A stretch of DNA of 37,155 nucleotides from a virus (IMGVR_UViG_3300021963_010582:1-37155); one strand, 5' to 3'. Shown: positions 20,195-35,223, counted from the first letter of the stretch. Notes: generated by a model not told the origin, from the letters alone. Program-made: numbers and translations.

Positions 20195-20606
20195 TGGGCG
20201 TCATCCCGAATTCTGCGGCGTAACGCATCATGTCCGCCGCTGCCTTGTTGGCGGTGCCGACCAGTGGGTTCTGGATCGCGTTGCCGTTTGATGTCTTGAT
20301 CATCAGACCGCCGGTCAGCTGATCCTTCTCGGCCATCTTGGCGATTGCCCGTTCGGCCTGGACCCAGCGGCCATAGGCCATGGCGTAGGCAGCGAGCGCC
20401 GCCCGGTCGATCTCGGATAGGATACCGAGGTTGTAGAGCTCGGTTGCGACCCGGTTCCATTCCTCGACCGCATCGGCCGTCAGATGGTGGGGCGGCGCCG
20501 GTATGGCTGCCTTGGCTTTGGCTTCCTTCCGATTGACCTGCCTTTTGCCGGGATTGGAGGTCACAAGCTTGAGCTGCGTGGGCTTCGGCTTTCTGCCGGT
20601 AATCAT
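20124..20606 (-). CDS. terS: Terminase small subunit, P27 family
   Basis: GRKPKPT.LK...NPGKR, QNPLV and EFGMTPSARSRI motifs. Confidence 0.95.
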   Translation of the reverse strand: MITGRKPKPTQLKLVTSNPGKRQVNRKEAKAKAAIPAPPHHLTADAVEEWNRVATELYNLGILSEIDRAALAAYAMAYGRWVQAERAIAKMAEKDQLTGGLMIKTSNGNAIQNPLVGTANKAAADMMRYAAEFGMTPSARSRISAEPPEEGGDPADRFFA

Positions 20607-21856
20607 GCAGCCTCAGCTATTCTCCCGCCTGCGATTTCGTCGAAGGTGCGGCCATCACCCTCGAGGGTCGCAGCCTTGCCGGTAAAGTCCTGCCAGCGCT
20701 TCACGGCCACATCGATATATGCGGGATTGAGCTCGATGGCGTGGATGGCGCGGCCGGTCATTTCACCGGCGATGATCGTGGTGCCAGAGCCAGAGAACGG
20801 CTCGTAAACGGCCTGGCCAGGGCTGGAATTGTTCTCGATGGGGCGCTTCATACACTCGACCGGTTTCTGGGTCCCGTGACCCGTCTCGTTCTTCTTCGGC
20901 TTTGCGATGTGCCAGACGGTCGTCTGCTTGCGGTCGCCCGCCCAGTGGCCTTTCGCGCCCTTTTTCACAGCATACCAGCACGGCTCATGCTCCCAATGGT
21001 AGTCGCCGCGCGAGAGCACGAGCTGGCCCTTGTCCCAGATGATCTGGGAGCGAAGCATCAGATCGCAGGCCGCTAGGCTGTCACCCACAACCCCGGCATA
21101 GAGCCCAGCGTGCCAGACATAGGCGACGTCACCCGGGAACAGCGCCCAGGCTTCGCGCCAGTCGGCTTTATCGTCGTTCAGCACCTTGCCCTTGGCGGTG
21201 CCGGAAGCAGCGACCCCAGCCTTTTCGCGCCAAGCCGGGTCATACTCGACGCCGTAGGGAGGATCGGTGACCATCAGGTGGGGCGTGACGCCGTTAAGGA
21301 CCTTCGCGACGGTTTCCGCATCGGTGCTGTCGCCGCAGACCAGCCGGTGCTTGCCCAGCAACCAGACATCGCCTGGCTTGGCGACGGGATCGATCGGAGC
21401 CTCAGGGATCTCGTCCGGATCGGTGTTGCCCTCGGTCTTCTCGGCCAGCAGCTTCGACAACTCGTCATCCGAGAACCCGGTCAGCATCAGGTCGAAGTCG
21501 AAGCCCTGCAGATCGCCGAGTTCGACGGCCAGCAGTTCGAGATCCCAACCCGCGTTCAGCGCCAGCTTGTTATCCGCGATGACGTAGGCCTTCTTCTGGG
21601 CTTCACTCCAGCCCTTGGCGACCATGGTCGGGATCTGGGTCAAGCCCAGCTTTCGCGCAGCAAGCAGACGGCCATGACCAGCGATCAGGCCGCCATCTTC
21701 ATCGACGAGGATCGGATTGGTCCAGCCCCATTCGCGGATTGAGGCCGCGATCTGGGCGACCTGCTCGTCCGAGTGCGTGCGAGAGTTGCGCGCGTAGGGC
21801 GTGATCTTCTCTATCGGCCAGAGCTCGCTGCTCTGGGCCGGCCAGTTCTGATCCAT
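20603..21856 (-). CDS. ParB-N-terminal-domain DNA methyltransferase (N6A/N4C, beta class)
   Basis: N-terminal ParB-like PILVD...IAGHGR...ADNK, catalytic TDPPY, HGTQKP, SAM-binding EPFSGSGTT. Confidence 0.95.
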   Translation of the reverse strand: MDQNWPAQSSELWPIEKITPYARNSRTHSDEQVAQIAASIREWGWTNPILVDEDGGLIAGHGRLLAARKLGLTQIPTMVAKGWSEAQKKAYVIADNKLALNAGWDLELLAVELGDLQGFDFDLMLTGFSDDELSKLLAEKTEGNTDPDEIPEAPIDPVAKPGDVWLLGKHRLVCGDSTDAETVAKVLNGVTPHLMVTDPPYGVEYDPAWREKAGVAASGTAKGKVLNDDKADWREAWALFPGDVAYVWHAGLYAGVVGDSLAACDLMLRSQIIWDKGQLVLSRGDYHWEHEPCWYAVKKGAKGHWAGDRKQTTVWHIAKPKKNETGHGTQKPVECMKRPIENNSSPGQAVYEPFSGSGTTIIAGEMTGRAIHAIELNPAYIDVAVKRWQDFTGKAATLEGDGRTFDEIAGGRIAEAA

Positions 21857-32175: not shown

Positions 32176-32375
32176 TCGGGGAATTCGCTGGCCTGATCAT
32201 CGACCTCAGGCTCGCTGGAATAGACAGCCAACAGCGGGGTGCCGTCGGCGTGGTTGCCGGCTTCTTCGATGTGATACCGGCGCTGGACCTCGAAGATTTC
32301 CGGCAACTCCCAGCGACGATAAAGGCCGGGGATCCGCTTCAGAGGCTCAGTCGGGATGGCAGTCGTATCGCTCAT
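32172..32375 (-). CDS. Small hypothetical phage protein
   Basis: Likely start MSDTT at 32375. IPGLYRRWELPEI...DGTPLLAVY. Confidence 0.65.
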   Translation of the reverse strand: MSDTTAIPTEPLKRIPGLYRRWELPEIFEVQRRYHIEEAGNHADGTPLLAVYSSEPEVDDQASEFPE

Positions 32376-32459
32376 CAACTGGGACTTCCTTGTTTTGGAA
32401 GACGCTCGGTGCGTCCGAAGTTGAAAAGCCAACCAGGCACACCGAGCGGGACAATGGGT

Positions 32460-33182
32460 TCAGGATTTTTCTTCGGCGTGTTCGCGAAGGCGCTTGAGGG
32501 CGCGCTGAAACCGCTTGCGGGCAGCCGGTTCCGAAAGGCCGATTTCCTTGCCGGCCTCGGCTTGCGTGTAGCCATCGATCACCACGCGCAGGACAAGTTC
32601 GGCATCCACCCCGATGAGGCTGGTCAGCTCCTCCAGCAGCCGTTCAGGCGACAGGTCAGGATCAACGAAGTCGGCGATGCCGCCGTGCAGATCAGGGTCG
32701 AACTCGTCCTGAACGAGTTGACGCCTGGTTTCGCGATTGTGCGCACGCAGCACATCGCGTTCGACGTTCTGAAGGATCGTCGCAGCAACCCAATTTACGC
32801 GATTGAGGTCCAGTTCACGGATCGCGGCCGTCGCGCGGGCCAGGATTTCAGACGCGATCTCGTCGGTGCGCCCAAGGCGGCGAGCCCGTGACCGACGAAA
32901 GACGCCGTCAAGCCCAGGCCACAGCGCAAGAAGCATCAGCGTAAGGGCACAATCCCCCGCGCGGTCTTTTGCCTTGGCGCTCTGGATCAGACCGCCAAGG
33001 AGCAGGTTCTTCTGGTCGGGGGAGCCATCGCCGCGATGCAGGTGGTCCAGCAACGCCGCTGGATCCGCAAAGCCAGTCAATCCGCGGTGACAGGTACGCA
33101 CCGTGGCGAAACCGCGCTGGAAATTGAGGGTGGAAGACGATTGAACGAGGTGTTGGTGAAATTCGTGCCACGACGAGGGCAT
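32460..33182 (-). CDS. Sigma-70 region-4 type (ECF-like) transcription factor
   Basis: C-terminal HTH DGYTQAEAGKEIGLSEPAARKRFQRALKRLR and a region-2-like central helical segment. Confidence 0.8.
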   Translation of the reverse strand: MPSSWHEFHQHLVQSSSTLNFQRGFATVRTCHRGLTGFADPAALLDHLHRGDGSPDQKNLLLGGLIQSAKAKDRAGDCALTLMLLALWPGLDGVFRRSRARRLGRTDEIASEILARATAAIRELDLNRVNWVAATILQNVERDVLRAHNRETRRQLVQDEFDPDLHGGIADFVDPDLSPERLLEELTSLIGVDAELVLRVVIDGYTQAEAGKEIGLSEPAARKRFQRALKRLREHAEEKS

Positions 33183-33249
33183 TTGACGCCAGCCTGACGG
33201 CCGGGCGTCGAGCGCCTCCTACTGGCCAGATCAGGGCGTCAAGCGCCTC
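33183..33249 (-). promoter_or_regulatory. Tandem-repeat/hairpin translational control element upstream of the sigma-like gene
   Basis: GAGGCGCTYGACGCCC twice (33249-33234 and 33218-33203), AGGAGG at 33220-33215, and a 25-nt hairpin ending 2 nt before the ATG. Confidence 0.7.
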
Positions 33250-33285
33250 TCGTTTCGGGGATGTTCGGGTAAGTCTGTTGCTACG

Positions 33286-33612
33286 CTAGCAAGCGGACTT
33301 CTTGTTCAGGGTGCCGCAACCGTGGCAGTTCGCGGTAACCGGGAACCCAACCAGATATTCGCGGTGCTTCTGAACGCGGATGTGCAGCTGGTTTCCGTTA
33401 GCAACACCGAGGAGCTTGCCGCACTCGGTGCAGCGCCATTCAGGCTCGCCACCGGTCAGGCCACCACTAGTGACGGGCGCATTATCGCCCCCATCGTTAG
33501 CGGCGGAAAGGCGCCGGATCTTCTTGAGCCGGTAAGCACTCGTGTGCGGCTTTCCAGGGGCCGAAATCAGGGAAGTATTAGAAGGGTCAACATTCATAGT
33601 CGGGGACTCCAT
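33286..33612 (-). CDS. Com-like zinc-ribbon protein
   Basis: WRCTECGKLLG...CHGCGTLN matches the RCxxCxKLL...CxxC pattern of Mu Com-family proteins. Alternative start at 33597. Confidence 0.75.
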   Translation of the reverse strand: MESPTMNVDPSNTSLISAPGKPHTSAYRLKKIRRLSAANDGGDNAPVTSGGLTGGEPEWRCTECGKLLGVANGNQLHIRVQKHREYLVGFPVTANCHGCGTLNKKSAC

Positions 33613-33703
33613 TTGGGGGTTTTGAAGGGACGAGAACGGTGGTTCGGAAAAGCGCGTGCTTTCCCGTTGAGGCAGTTTTTAAAATGTGAGATTTCAGCGT
33701 GTG

Positions 33704-34222
33704 TTAGGAGGCTTCGCCGGCCTCAGCTTCCGCTCCGCGCCGTTTGAAGCCAAGACTGGCAGCCTTCTGACGGCTCTGGCGTGCTTGGTTACGGGCTTCG
33801 CGAAAGTCCGGTTCAAGTTCGGTGAGCTTGTCGACCAAGCCCTGCAAATCGTACATGTTCGACATGCGGCCCTTGTGGTCTGCATAGCGCGGAATGCGCT
33901 TGATCAGGCCTTCGTCCTCAAGATCCGTCAGGTAACGCTGGATTTGGCGTTCGCCGATGCCGAGCCGCTGAGACAACTCCTTTTTGCTCGGATAGGGCTT
34001 GCGTCCAGCATCCCACCAGTGATCCACGATCTGGATCAGCACCGCCAACTGTGTCGGGTTCAGGTGCAGACGGCGCTGCGCTCGCAGCAACAGGGACGGC
34101 AACATACAAAACCCACTATCCATGACCTTCGCGCCCCATTTCTGGCTAGCGGGGGACTTCCGGGACTTCTTCTCCGGTGCTACCTTCTCGGTCGTTATTT
34201 CGTCTTGATTCGTGTCAGTCAT
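33704..34222 (-). CDS. Winged helix-turn-helix DNA-binding protein (HTH_36/DnaD-N-like)
   Basis: Start MTDTNQ at 34222 with GGAG RBS. PYPSKKELSQRLGIGERQIQRYLTDLEDEGLIKR...SNMYDL. Confidence 0.8.
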   Translation of the reverse strand: MTDTNQDEITTEKVAPEKKSRKSPASQKWGAKVMDSGFCMLPSLLLRAQRRLHLNPTQLAVLIQIVDHWWDAGRKPYPSKKELSQRLGIGERQIQRYLTDLEDEGLIKRIPRYADHKGRMSNMYDLQGLVDKLTELEPDFREARNQARQSRQKAASLGFKRRGAEAEAGEAS

Positions 34223-34282
34223 TCGCAATCTCCATGCCCGATAAATGGGCTCGTTGAGTCGAATGCACAAGTGTCGACCCGG

Positions 34283-34429
34283 GGACATATTTAACTCCAG
34301 GGCTACGGTCATTACTGCCTCTACCGGAGAGGCAAGAGTGTCTCCTGAATCAGGACGTATGTAACCATGATGAACGTTAAGTCGTATAAGGAGCATAAGG
34401 TGCCCCGGTCAAAAATGACCTAGGGTCAT
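34283..34429. promoter_or_regulatory. Divergent control region with degenerate GGTCA-N4-TGACC palindromes
   Basis: Copies at 34283, 34307, 34353 and 34407 (perfect). Other dyads at 34316-34334, 34343-34355 and 34415-34429. Confidence 0.5.
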
Positions 34430-34555
34430 GCCCGAACTTTTTCTCCGATTGCGGTTCTCTCGGTTTCCATCGTTGTCCCGTTGCCTTCGGGCATCTGGCT
34501 TTTCCGTCTCAGCACCATCGTTCGGCACAGCCGGGCGAGAGACGGAGACCCACAA

Positions 34556-34762
34556 GTGAAGACCCCCAACCCGTTCCATCCGGACCAGATGAGCGCCGAA
34601 GCTCGGCTCGCCGAGTTGGGCCGCATCCTTGCCGCGGGCATTCAGCGCCTGCGCGAACAGTCCAGTTCTATATCTGCCGACAGCGGAGATAGTTCGCTCG
34701 CTATCCCAGCCAGCAAGAGCGTCAGTCGTCCTGGGCACAAGGCCCGCAAAGGAGGACGATAA
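34556..34762 (+). CDS. Small protein preceding DUF2924
   Basis: GTG start with GGAG RBS. NPFHPDQMSAEARLAELGRILAAGIQRL. Stop overlaps the DUF2924 start. Confidence 0.65.
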   Translation: MKTPNPFHPDQMSAEARLAELGRILAAGIQRLREQSSSISADSGDSSLAIPASKSVSRPGHKARKGGR

Positions 34763-35223
34763 TGCAACACCAGGACGACGGGCCGGTGCTGGCGAGGCTG
34801 GCAAGCCTCAAGGCCATGACGGTCAATGAGCTGAAAGCCGAATGGCAGACGCTTATGGGATCCACGCCGCCCAACAACAGCCGGACATTTCTCGAGCAAC
34901 GACTGGCCTACAGGATCCAGGAGCTGACCTATGGCGGCCTGCCGCAACCGGTCAGCCGACTGCTGGATGCCCTGGCTGACGAGGTCGAGGGGAAGAAGGT
35001 CCGTAAATCGGTGATCAGCGATCCGCGCAATCCGGTTATCGGCACACGGCTGGTCAGGGAATGGGACGGCGTCGAGCACGTAGTCACGGTCCTGCAAGGC
35101 GGCTTCGATTGGCAGGGGCGCCGATACAAGTCGCTGTCCGCCATCGCCCGCGACATCACCGGAACGCAGTGGAACGGCTACCGCTTCTTCGGCCTGCGCG
35201 AGAACAAGAGGGCTGCAGCATGA
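34762..35223 (+). CDS. DUF2924 family protein
   Basis: LAYRIQELTYGGL, GTRLVREWDG and YKSLSAIARDITGTQWNGYRFFGL. GGAGG RBS. Confidence 0.92.
   Translation: MQHQDDGPVLARLASLKAMTVNELKAEWQTLMGSTPPNNSRTFLEQRLAYRIQELTYGGLPQPVSRLLDALADEVEGKKVRKSVISDPRNPVIGTRLVREWDGVEHVVTVLQGGFDWQGRRYKSLSAIARDITGTQWNGYRFFGLRENKRAAA

What the first reader, a model, noticed from the sequence alone, without database searches (positions are those of the whole stretch)
32460..33612. Com-like zinc ribbon + tandem repeats + split ribosome-binding site gating a phage sigma-like factor
Seen on the mRNA: GAGGCGCTTGACGCCC-N15-GAGGCGCTCGACGCCC (16-nt repeats, one mismatch). A perfect AGGAGG lies 32 nt upstream of the AUG. The intervening hairpin GACGCC-C-GGCC-GTCA-GGCT-GGCGTC is 25 nt, so folding it leaves an effective 7-nt spacing. 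The upstream repeat's TTGACGCC can instead pair 8 bp with GGCGTCAA next to the AUG, a mutually exclusive fold. The gene immediately upstream encodes a CxxC..KLL..CxxC protein. Established: Mu Com binds mRNA and remodels structure to activate mom translation, and T4 gene 38 uses a hairpin to bring a distant SD to the start codon. Inference: a protein-gated RNA switch controlling the sigma-like activator of the replication operon, i.e. a translational lysis-lysogeny control in a prophage with no visible CI. This is the best candidate for an undescribed system here.
Basis: partly seen in the sequence, partly recalled or inferred. Interest (0 to 1): 0.85.

Follow-up and report, generated by a model that had tools for sequence, protein, structure and literature searches.

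The report
Double RNA lock on prophage sigma
In a widespread family of prophages, a conserved stretch of messenger RNA is predicted to fold over the start codon of a sigma-factor-like gene, and two small hairpins in it, shaped like the target of phage Mu's Com protein, likely let the zinc-finger protein encoded just upstream switch translation on, which would give the dormant phage an RNA-level wake-up switch.

Summary
The 'split ribosome-binding site' is poorly supported: AGGAGG occurs in 30 of 155 distinct leaders, pairs with the first codons, and the needed fold costs 16 kcal/mol. Instead, each repeat is a mini-hairpin with a C-N2-3-GA loop (both present in 147 of 155 leaders, with compensatory changes), the shape of Mu Com's target and of hairpins beside 20 of 21 canonical com genes. 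The upstream zinc ribbon looks like a divergent Com (HHalign 97.9%, 16-residue insertion; below the Pfam cut-off). Two alternative folds bury the AUG; only holding both hairpins lowers the opening cost (about 22 to 9.5 kcal/mol). That state is too costly at equilibrium, so capture would have to happen during transcription. The ECF-like protein likely drives a bipartite motif before the replication and recombinase operons. Binding, sign of control and the lysis role are untested. This scan reported the same system four times on other DNA; I found no paper or Rfam family for it. Verdict: new variant of Com-mom control; interest 0.62.

The parts
33286..33597 (-). Com-like CCCC zinc-ribbon gene (likely 103 aa; conserved 51-aa core at 33289-33441; alternative ATG at 33612)
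   Evidence: HHalign of family profile against canonical Com profile 97.9%, E 6.4e-13, about 16-residue insertion; Pfam PF10122 only 14.6-14.9 bits, cut-off 22.9; AlphaFold pLDDT 88, all-beta; present upstream of the sigma gene in 451 of 455 loci, duplicates included
33278..33292 (-). Small hairpin at the zinc-ribbon stop codon, followed by a C/A-rich linker
   Evidence: Predicted fold; a hairpin of different sequence at the same place in relatives, seen by eye only
33235..33249 (-). Mini-hairpin 1 (repeat 1): GA, 4-bp stem, C-N2-GA loop; predicted Com-type site. Its 3' half is also the 5' arm of the long-range lock (fold B)
   Evidence: 151 of 155 distinct leaders, 3.7% of shuffles; pair G-C to A-U in 14 of 64 aligned rows, G-C to U-A in 1
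33224..33227 (-). Conserved GGCC spacer that pairs with the Trp5 codon region (fold A) or with the GGCC after repeat 2 (fold B)
   Evidence: 92.7% of cells paired in the fold-B helix, with one-sided (wobble) changes only; 86.5% in fold A
33215..33220 (-). AGGAGG: overlaps the start of mini-hairpin 2; better read as a pairing arm than as a conserved SD
   Evidence: 30 of 155 leaders; median probability unpaired 0.20 in the 28 scored; flank-to-codon pairing better than permuted, -8.6 against -7.7 kcal/mol
33204..33218 (-). Mini-hairpin 2 (repeat 2); predicted Com-type site. Its loop and 3' strand are the 5' arm of the start-proximal lock (fold A)
   Evidence: 150 of 155 leaders, 2.3% of shuffles; single compensatory changes in L401 and L408
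33168..33209 (-). Translation-inhibition stem: core 33185-33209 with a GNNA-type loop, extending over the AUG and the first five codons; 3' arm 33183-33190 pairs with either repeat
   Evidence: G of the start codon paired with p>0.9 in 145 of 155 leaders; fold A dominant in 135 and fold B in 12 of 147; fold B 99% in the window; folding z-score -2.4
32460..33182 (-). ECF-like sigma factor gene, 240 aa, with an extra N-terminal region of about 75-100 aa
   Evidence: Pfam Sigma70_r4_2 over cut-off; PHROG 1740 E 1.3e-12 over residues 103-239; TIGR02937 30 bits, under its cut-off of 42.9; profile hits to solved SigL and RpoE over profile positions 104-238
32423..32453 (-). Bipartite DNA motif TGTCCC-N17-GGCTTTT right after the sigma gene, before the replication/recombination operon; predicted promoter of the phage sigma
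   Evidence: 139 of 143 leaders' loci have it (GGCTTTT or CGCGTTT type), 0 in an equal stretch inside the gene
34474..34504 (+). Second copy of the motif, before the DUF2924 - serine recombinase operon
   Evidence: 92 of 122 long loci have a copy on the opposite strand upstream
33704..34396 (-). Winged-HTH gene (HTH_36 / DnaD_N-like) just upstream of and co-directional with the zinc-ribbon gene; a variable slot in the family, possible input to the switch
   Evidence: this type in 35 of 313 loci, a large protein without Pfam match in 231 of 313

Best explanation
The leader before the sigma-like gene is a conserved RNA predicted to keep the start codon buried, and the Com-like zinc ribbon encoded upstream likely activates translation by binding both of its mini-hairpins, so that the sigma-like protein would be made only above a threshold of the zinc ribbon and would then turn on the replication and recombinase operons. 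Shown by sequence and comparison: two C-N2-3-GA-loop hairpins at about -61 and -30, compensatory changes, constant linkage to the zinc-ribbon gene, and a bipartite DNA motif before both operons. Predicted by folding: the unbound RNA takes fold A (hairpin 1 plus a long stem from repeat 2 over the AUG) or fold B (repeat 1 pairs with the same arm and the AUG, hairpin 2 on top); each shows one site and keeps the start shut, so one bound protein only shifts the RNA to the other lock. Inferred: two proteins must catch both hairpins on the nascent RNA, in the short interval before the 3' arm leaves the polymerase, which frees the start-proximal AAGG-like site and the AUG. Inferred and untested: binding itself, activation rather than repression, sigma activity, and a role in prophage induction.
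For: (1) Both hairpins in 147 of 155 distinct leaders against 0.06% of 3100 shuffles; 120 of the 127 not first reached through a leader pattern. Six further loci from genome samples all have both. (2) Same shape as Mu's site: short stem, loop opening with C and ending in GA, motif CC(N)2-3GAG (PMC6483171). 20 of 21 parsed canonical com loci have such a hairpin within 90 nt of the zinc finger and 8 have two or more; shuffles 4.7% and 0.05%. (3) Protein profile match to Com; Com is the Pfam family hit by most members, 11 of 25 and 14 of 61. (4) Covariation: 4 of 8 hairpin pairs change on both sides. L408 changes three linked bases and keeps both hairpin 2 and the lock. L487/L498 change the 3' arm so that it fits repeat 1 better, and fold B takes over. 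One-sided stem changes are G-U in 9 cells and A-C in 2, as expected for RNA on the mRNA strand. (5) Median cost to open -14..+6: 21.8 kcal/mol free, 21.9 with hairpin 1 held, 15.9 with hairpin 2 held, 9.5 with both (n=147). Window: 24.0, 21.6, 24.5, 12.3, against a median 9.1 (max 16.9) for 35 other putative starts. (6) Two zinc-ribbon subtypes track stem type: all 17 of subtype II have a 3-bp hairpin 1, none of 153 of subtype I has a 3-bp stem, and the pair swaps together at about five places on the sigma tree. (7) On nascent RNA ending at -12 or -10 both hairpins are favoured in 89 of 147 leaders, and in 0 of 147 from -4 on. (8) No terminator-like site on the minus strand between the two genes.
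Against: No binding, probing, reporter or expression data exist. Holding both hairpins costs 12.4 kcal/mol in the window (median 13.6), which needs about 5e8 times the Kd at equilibrium, so the model rests on kinetics I could not test. In the window itself both hairpins are favoured only when the RNA ends at -12, partly at -10; a third fold wins at -20 and -8. With both held the window's start (12.3) is still above the median of other starts. The same method does not reproduce Mu's switch (opening 9.8 to 9.3). The protein is under the Pfam cut-off, scores only 36% against Mu Com alone, and I ran no profile control against other zinc-ribbon families. The loop-closing pair here is G-C, against C-G in 25 of 29 canonical hairpins. 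Compensatory changes come from few independent events; most stem bases are simply invariant, and for folds A and B a slid control reached a similar or higher covariation score. Holding hairpin 2 alone is nearly enough in 17 of 147 leaders. Gene and hairpins are adjacent, so co-transfer can explain their matching. The window's clade lacks the proximal AAGG (14 of 155).
Confidence: 0.6

Rival explanations
1. Split ribosome-binding site: the 25-nt hairpin brings the distal AGGAGG to 7 nt from the AUG; the protein would activate by holding hairpin 1 (blocking fold B) and repress at hairpin 2. Possibly true only in the window's clade.
For: Geometry is right in the window; precedent in T4 genes 38 and 25 (PMC3014915, passage). 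12 of the 14 leaders without a proximal AAGG/GAGG have a strong distal duplex, against 36 of 141 others.
Against: AGGAGG in 30 of 155, no SD-like 4-mer in 20 of 155. The state costs 16.3 kcal/mol in the window and 13.4 with hairpin 1 held; median 15.0, range 7.8-19.5, in 28 AGGAGG leaders. GAGG is part of the repeated motif in both copies. The 13 of those 14 leaders that are on the tree fall in about four places, 9 in one clade whose sister clade has both elements.
Confidence: 0.1
2. The protein binds the hairpins but holds the RNA off (stabilising fold A or B, each of which shows one site), or the lock is opened by something else (pausing, RNase cut, a second promoter, temperature).
For: Each lock presents one ready-made hairpin at almost no cost (3.0 and 0.1 kcal/mol in the window), so equilibrium binding stabilises closed folds. 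Translational repression at a leader motif is known for Aca2 (PMC13551039, passage).
Against: The unbound leader is already shut (21.8 kcal/mol), so a repressor adds little; the known Com is an activator; two tandem sites also occur at 8 of 21 canonical com loci.
Confidence: 0.13
3. The repeats are DNA operators, 31 bp apart (three turns), for the zinc ribbon or another regulator (NCBI-style 'Com family DNA-binding regulator' is a recalled label), controlling transcription of the sigma gene.
For: Spacing is nearly fixed at 30-32 nt; each repeat is an imperfect palindrome; most positions are invariant.
Against: G-U-type changes on the mRNA strand outnumber A-C 9 to 2; loop length varies 5-6 nt; conservation includes the 3' arm and first codons that pair with the repeats; Com's characterised ligand is RNA (PMC6483171).
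Confidence: 0.07
4. The zinc ribbon is a protein partner of the sigma factor (anti-sigma or co-activator) and the RNA structure is an unrelated constitutive damper.
For: Small zinc proteins beside ECF genes are often anti-sigma factors (own knowledge); the 16-residue insertion has no known role.
Against: Protein subtype tracks hairpin type rather than sigma clade; the profile match is to Com.
Confidence: 0.05

Closest known systems
Phage Mu com-mom translational activation (Com, Pfam PF10122; PMC6483171, parts 1-4 of 6 read; PMC3299994, passages)
   Same: Small CCCC zinc ribbon gene directly upstream of its target; short hairpin with a loop from C to GA beside a structure that buries the start codon; related com genes also precede DNA methylases.
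   Different: About 16-residue insertion between the cysteine pairs; closing pair G-C instead of C-G; sites lie in a 100-nt intergenic leader, not inside com; two equal sites whose strands are the arms of two alternative locks; lock predicted at 22-24 against about 10 kcal/mol; target is a sigma-like regulator of early genes, not a late DNA-modifying enzyme.
T4 genes 38 and 25 split ribosome-binding site (PMC3014915, passage)
   Same: In the window a hairpin lies between a strong SD-like sequence and the AUG.
   Different: The distal SD is not conserved here and is predicted to be paired; the stem runs over the AUG.
Mobile-element sigma factors such as SigN of pBS32 (PMC6751061, abstract and section headings only; lead from e1-6182074)
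   Same: A sigma factor on a mobile element that, by analogy, switches on the element's genes.
   Different: SigN is repressed by LexA and activates its own expression (section headings). Here no LexA-type box was found (0 of 234) and control is predicted at translation.
Aca2 RNA-motif control of anti-CRISPR operons (PMC13551039, passage)
   Same: A small phage protein binds a conserved structured leader to set translation.
   Different: HTH protein, repressor; here a zinc ribbon predicted to activate.

Membership tests
Com family (PF10122) | Four cysteines as two CxxC pairs with K/R-L-L after the first | tested here: met
   C4, C7, L10, L11, C39, C42 invariant in 25 rows
Com family (PF10122) | Score over the Pfam gathering cut-off (22.9 bits) | tested here: not met
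   14.6-14.9 bits for the window protein; so filed as Com-like, not as a PF10122 member
Com family (PF10122) | Profile-level homology across both cysteine pairs | tested here: met
   HHalign 97.9%, 40 columns, one gap of 16; no control against other zinc-ribbon profiles was run
Com family (PF10122) | Same fold as Com | tested here: inconclusive
   Model pLDDT 88; best Z 3.0, nothing meaningful
Com-mom translational switch | Hairpin with a C-N2-3-GA loop just upstream of the target start | tested here: met
   Two copies in 147 of 155 leaders
Com-mom translational switch | Exact selected motif CC(N)2-3GAG (C-G closing pair) | tested here: not met
   Closing pair is G-C in this family; C-G in 25 of 29 canonical hairpins
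Com-mom translational switch | Adjacent inhibitory structure burying the start codon | tested here: met
   Prediction only: start-codon G paired in 145 of 155
Com-mom translational switch | Protein binds the RNA and activates translation | not testable with these tools
   Needs EMSA and reporter
Com-mom translational switch | Target is mom or a DNA methylase | tested here: not met
   Target is a sigma-like gene in all 119 pattern matches as far as readable; no second leader copy in the window
ECF sigma factor | Sigma-4 domain | tested here: met
   PF08281 27.7 bits over 25.7
ECF sigma factor | Sigma-2 domain | tested here: inconclusive
   No Pfam Sigma70_r2 hit; weak matches extend into it (TIGR02937 under cut-off; SigL and RpoE); Foldseek's top rows are sigma factors but E>0.1 on a pTM 0.52 model
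ECF sigma factor | Directs RNA polymerase to a bipartite promoter | not testable with these tools
   Candidate motif found; activity untested
T4-type split ribosome-binding site | Conserved distal SD | tested here: not met
   30 of 155
T4-type split ribosome-binding site | SD and AUG single-stranded beside the bridging hairpin | tested here: not met
   State costs 16.3 kcal/mol; prediction only
Any Rfam 15 family | Covariance-model match | tested here: not met
   Two chance rows far below cut-off, none on the leader; only tRNAs in 20 related loci

The most novel reading that the evidence does not exclude
A large family of prophages decides between dormancy and lysis with no CI-type repressor: a two-site RNA AND-gate, read during transcription by a Com-like zinc ribbon, sets a sharp threshold for translating the phage's own sigma factor, and protein and hairpin subtypes form swappable specificity modules.
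Probability: 0.3. Interest if true: 0.8.

Novelty: new variant of a known kind. Interest (0 to 1): 0.62.

Why it matters
Com has been studied only as the switch for late DNA-modifying genes. Here a divergent Com clade (430 clusters at 50% identity) is tied to a likely master regulator in prophages of Sphingomonadales, Rhodobacterales, Hyphomicrobiales and unnamed metagenome lineages. If right, it gives a testable answer to how prophages without a recognisable CI stay silent and wake up, adds a natural two-input RNA gate, and offers protein-hairpin pairs of different specificity for synthetic translational control. The same comparison shows that C-N2-3-GA hairpins, often in tandem, mark canonical Com targets too.

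Tried and rejected
Split-RBS as the family mechanism: rejected. Leader conserved as coding sequence: rejected, since the linked changes are non-synonymous in the one long open frame and an in-frame stop precedes the AUG. Other start codon: rejected. Positive feedback through the sigma motif upstream of the zinc-ribbon gene: not found in 42 loci with the GGCTTTT-type pattern; that pattern does not test the CGCGTTT-type clade. LexA-type boxes (recalled alphaproteobacterial pattern): 0 of 234 upstream regions. Sigma-70 consensus promoters: none in 32300-34800. CI-type repressor: no HTH_3 or S24 match in the record; beyond the recombinase operon in G001:C84 lie host-type genes; the record is incomplete, so absence is not shown. 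Fold searches gave nothing decisive; the ESM Atlas gave unnamed clusters. Complex prediction of zinc ribbon with sigma: no answer, not evidence either way. RNA runs: only assembled contigs with small shares; one contig of X8 spans 32976-34204 at about 94% identity but cannot show a single transcript, ends or level. The Mu benchmark used the annotated ATG and was redone at the GUG. Of the 35 control starts some are unverified, and one (32399) is not a start codon. RNA-model search of 151 alphaproteobacterial genomes: two strong hits, both before this sigma; two weak hits (29 bits) without the two-hairpin pattern, not pursued. A link between the -10 type and one sigma residue (Trp in 76 of 104 GGCT-type, 0 of 35 CGCG-type) is confounded by clade and not counted. 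Literature searches listed no description of this system; the main text of PMC5737381 has no hit for Com, sigma or zinc.

Full report
Setting. The window is a provirus record (CheckV 68% complete) of an HK97-type siphophage: tail, head and terminase genes, a ParB-methylase, then primase, helicase, Cas4-like nuclease, DUF669 and Sak4-like ATPase genes, all on the minus strand, headed by the sigma-like gene and the zinc-ribbon gene; a DUF2924 - serine recombinase operon faces away. An identical sigma protein lies in L030, titled a Caenibius MAG.

Observation. The start codon is fixed by an in-frame stop 13 codons upstream and by invariance of M1.

Data set. Relatives came from seven scans: 29 loci; best 80 of 284; 80 of 268; 119 pattern matches; 80 of 241; 80 of 310; 80 of 268; many contigs were fetched more than once. 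A profile search found the sigma gene in 517 loci; 487 had a start codon with at least 85 nt before it, 17 were dropped for a shorter flank and 13 lacked the N-terminus; they collapse to 155 distinct leaders. 28 of these were first reached by a DNA pattern that contains hairpin 2. Sigma identity to the window runs down to about 36%. The leader is far better kept than neighbouring intergenic DNA or four-fold sites (76% against 35% and 38%). The zinc-ribbon gene precedes it in 451 of 455 loci.

What the repeats are. Each is a small hairpin: GA, a 3-4-bp stem, and a loop of C, two or three free bases, GA. Hairpin 1 is found in 151, hairpin 2 in 150 and both in 147 of 155 leaders, against 0.06% of shuffles; the 8 misses have a broken pair, a longer loop or a lost hairpin 1. 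On an alignment of 64 hand-picked diverse leaders, 4 of the 8 stem pairs change on both sides, though from few independent events on the tree. Mu's Com binds a hairpin of the same build, motif CC(N)2-3GAG with the loop GA protected, next to a structure holding the start codon (PMC6483171, parts 1-4 of 6 read). As an independent check I drew canonical com genes from 301 genomes (26 matches in 21 genomes): 20 of them plus Mu could be parsed, 6 could not; 20 of the 21 have such a hairpin and 8 have two or more, mostly before DNA methylase-like or mom-like genes as read by eye. Their closing pair is usually C-G; here it is G-C.

The protein. It misses the Pfam Com cut-off and matches Mu Com alone weakly, but a profile of 61 family members (the window's protein plus 60 of the 150 listed) aligns to a profile of 19 canonical Coms at 97.9% with one 16-residue insertion, and Com is the family most members hit. 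Short cysteine-rich profiles attract each other and I ran no control for that. Two subtypes exist. Reading by its tree rather than by my rough pattern labels, all 17 subtype II proteins go with a 3-bp hairpin 1 (hairpin 2 is 3-bp in 14, 4-bp in 2, uncalled in 1), while 150 of 153 subtype I proteins go with two 4-bp stems and none with a 3-bp stem. Subtype I with 4-bp stems turns up at about five places inside the subtype II sigma clade. This fits specificity but also plain linkage.

The lock. Unbound, the leader is predicted to bury the start codon (145 of 155) in one of two ways: repeat 2 pairs with the 3' arm and the first codons (fold A, dominant in 135 of 147), or repeat 1 does (fold B, 12 of 147, including the window at 99%). 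Pair counts support both modestly: 83% of cells paired against at most 53% for slid partners, but with covariation scores that a slid control matched or beat. Two cases are telling: L408 changes three linked bases and keeps hairpin 2 and fold A; L487/L498 change the arm towards repeat 1. Opening the region -14..+6 costs a median 21.8 kcal/mol, 21.9 with hairpin 1 held, 15.9 with hairpin 2 held and 9.5 with both; both-held is more than 2 kcal/mol below hairpin-2-only in 130 of 147. The catch is the cost of the both-held state, 12-14 kcal/mol, out of reach at equilibrium. Folding of truncated RNAs offers a way: both hairpins are favoured in 89 of 147 leaders when the RNA ends at -12 or -10 and in none from -4 on; in the window that interval is narrow. 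The method does not reproduce Mu's own switch, so the energies are a guide only.

The split RBS. T4 genes 38 and 25 are real precedents (PMC3014915, passage). Here the distal hexamer is patchy (30 of 155), absent as any SD-like 4-mer in 20, and tends to pair with its own first codons (108 distinct combinations, mean -8.6 against -7.7 kcal/mol permuted, none of 2000 permutations as low; only 61 of 108 beat their row mean; relatedness not controlled). An AAGG or GAGG sits 7-11 nt before the start in 141 of 155, inside the lock.

Output and input. The target has a sigma-4 domain and weak ECF matches reaching into sigma-2. Following a lead from an earlier scan note, I found a bipartite motif directly after the gene in 139 of 143 loci and before the recombinase operon in 92 of 122, the pattern expected if the sigma turns on replication and excision. 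No copy, LexA-type box or sigma-70 promoter was found before the zinc-ribbon gene. The gene upstream varies, and many relatives have three short direct repeats there, so the trigger probably acts on transcription of the zinc-ribbon gene; this is a guess. No CI-type gene is in the record.

Novelty. Rfam has no match. Eight literature searches listed no description; Com homologues before methylases are in print (PMC3299994, passages). The supplement of PMC5737381 could not be read, and most subscription papers are not in the library. This scan has noted the system at least four times on other DNA; those notes are not independent evidence. My two-site reading was written down before I saw them. 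It works like Com-mom, fails strict membership on Pfam score, closing pair and target, and is best filed as a new variant of a known kind. Interest 0.62; everything mechanistic awaits experiment.

Noticed in passing
L055, L117, L142, L397 and others, about 60-130 nt before the zinc-ribbon start: Three short direct repeats (types GTCTAAC, CTCCGAT, ATACAGAC) follow the upstream gene, a large protein (over 850 aa in L051) with no Pfam match; they may be binding sites for it and the input of the switch.
   Followed up: partly
L008, L049, L062, L107 and others, just before the zinc-ribbon start: The zinc-ribbon gene's own SD appears to sit in a small hairpin in many relatives; seen by eye.
   Followed up: no
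L362-L387, within 90 nt after the second cysteine pair: Canonical com genes carry one to three C-N2-3-GA hairpins before their targets, mostly methylase-like or mom-like genes; in L363 three hairpins precede an unrelated repeat-like protein. No Rfam family covers them.
   Followed up: partly
L085, L098, L183, L210, L263: Mosaic loci: a different subtype I zinc ribbon sits before an unchanged leader and sigma, so crossovers occur between gene and leader.
   Followed up: partly
window 33168-33170 (Trp5 codon): The invariant Trp5 codon pairs with the conserved GGCC spacer in fold A; its conservation may be RNA-driven.
   Followed up: partly
L299, L448: Two leaders have lost hairpin 1 and keep hairpin 2 and the lock: natural single-site variants useful as controls.
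   Followed up: no
window 20603-21856: ParB-fused DNA methylase gene before the terminase; it carries no copy of the leader.
   Followed up: partly
window 32433-32400 and the same place in relatives: A short conserved hairpin-like stretch follows the predicted promoter, before the first replication-operon gene.
   Followed up: no
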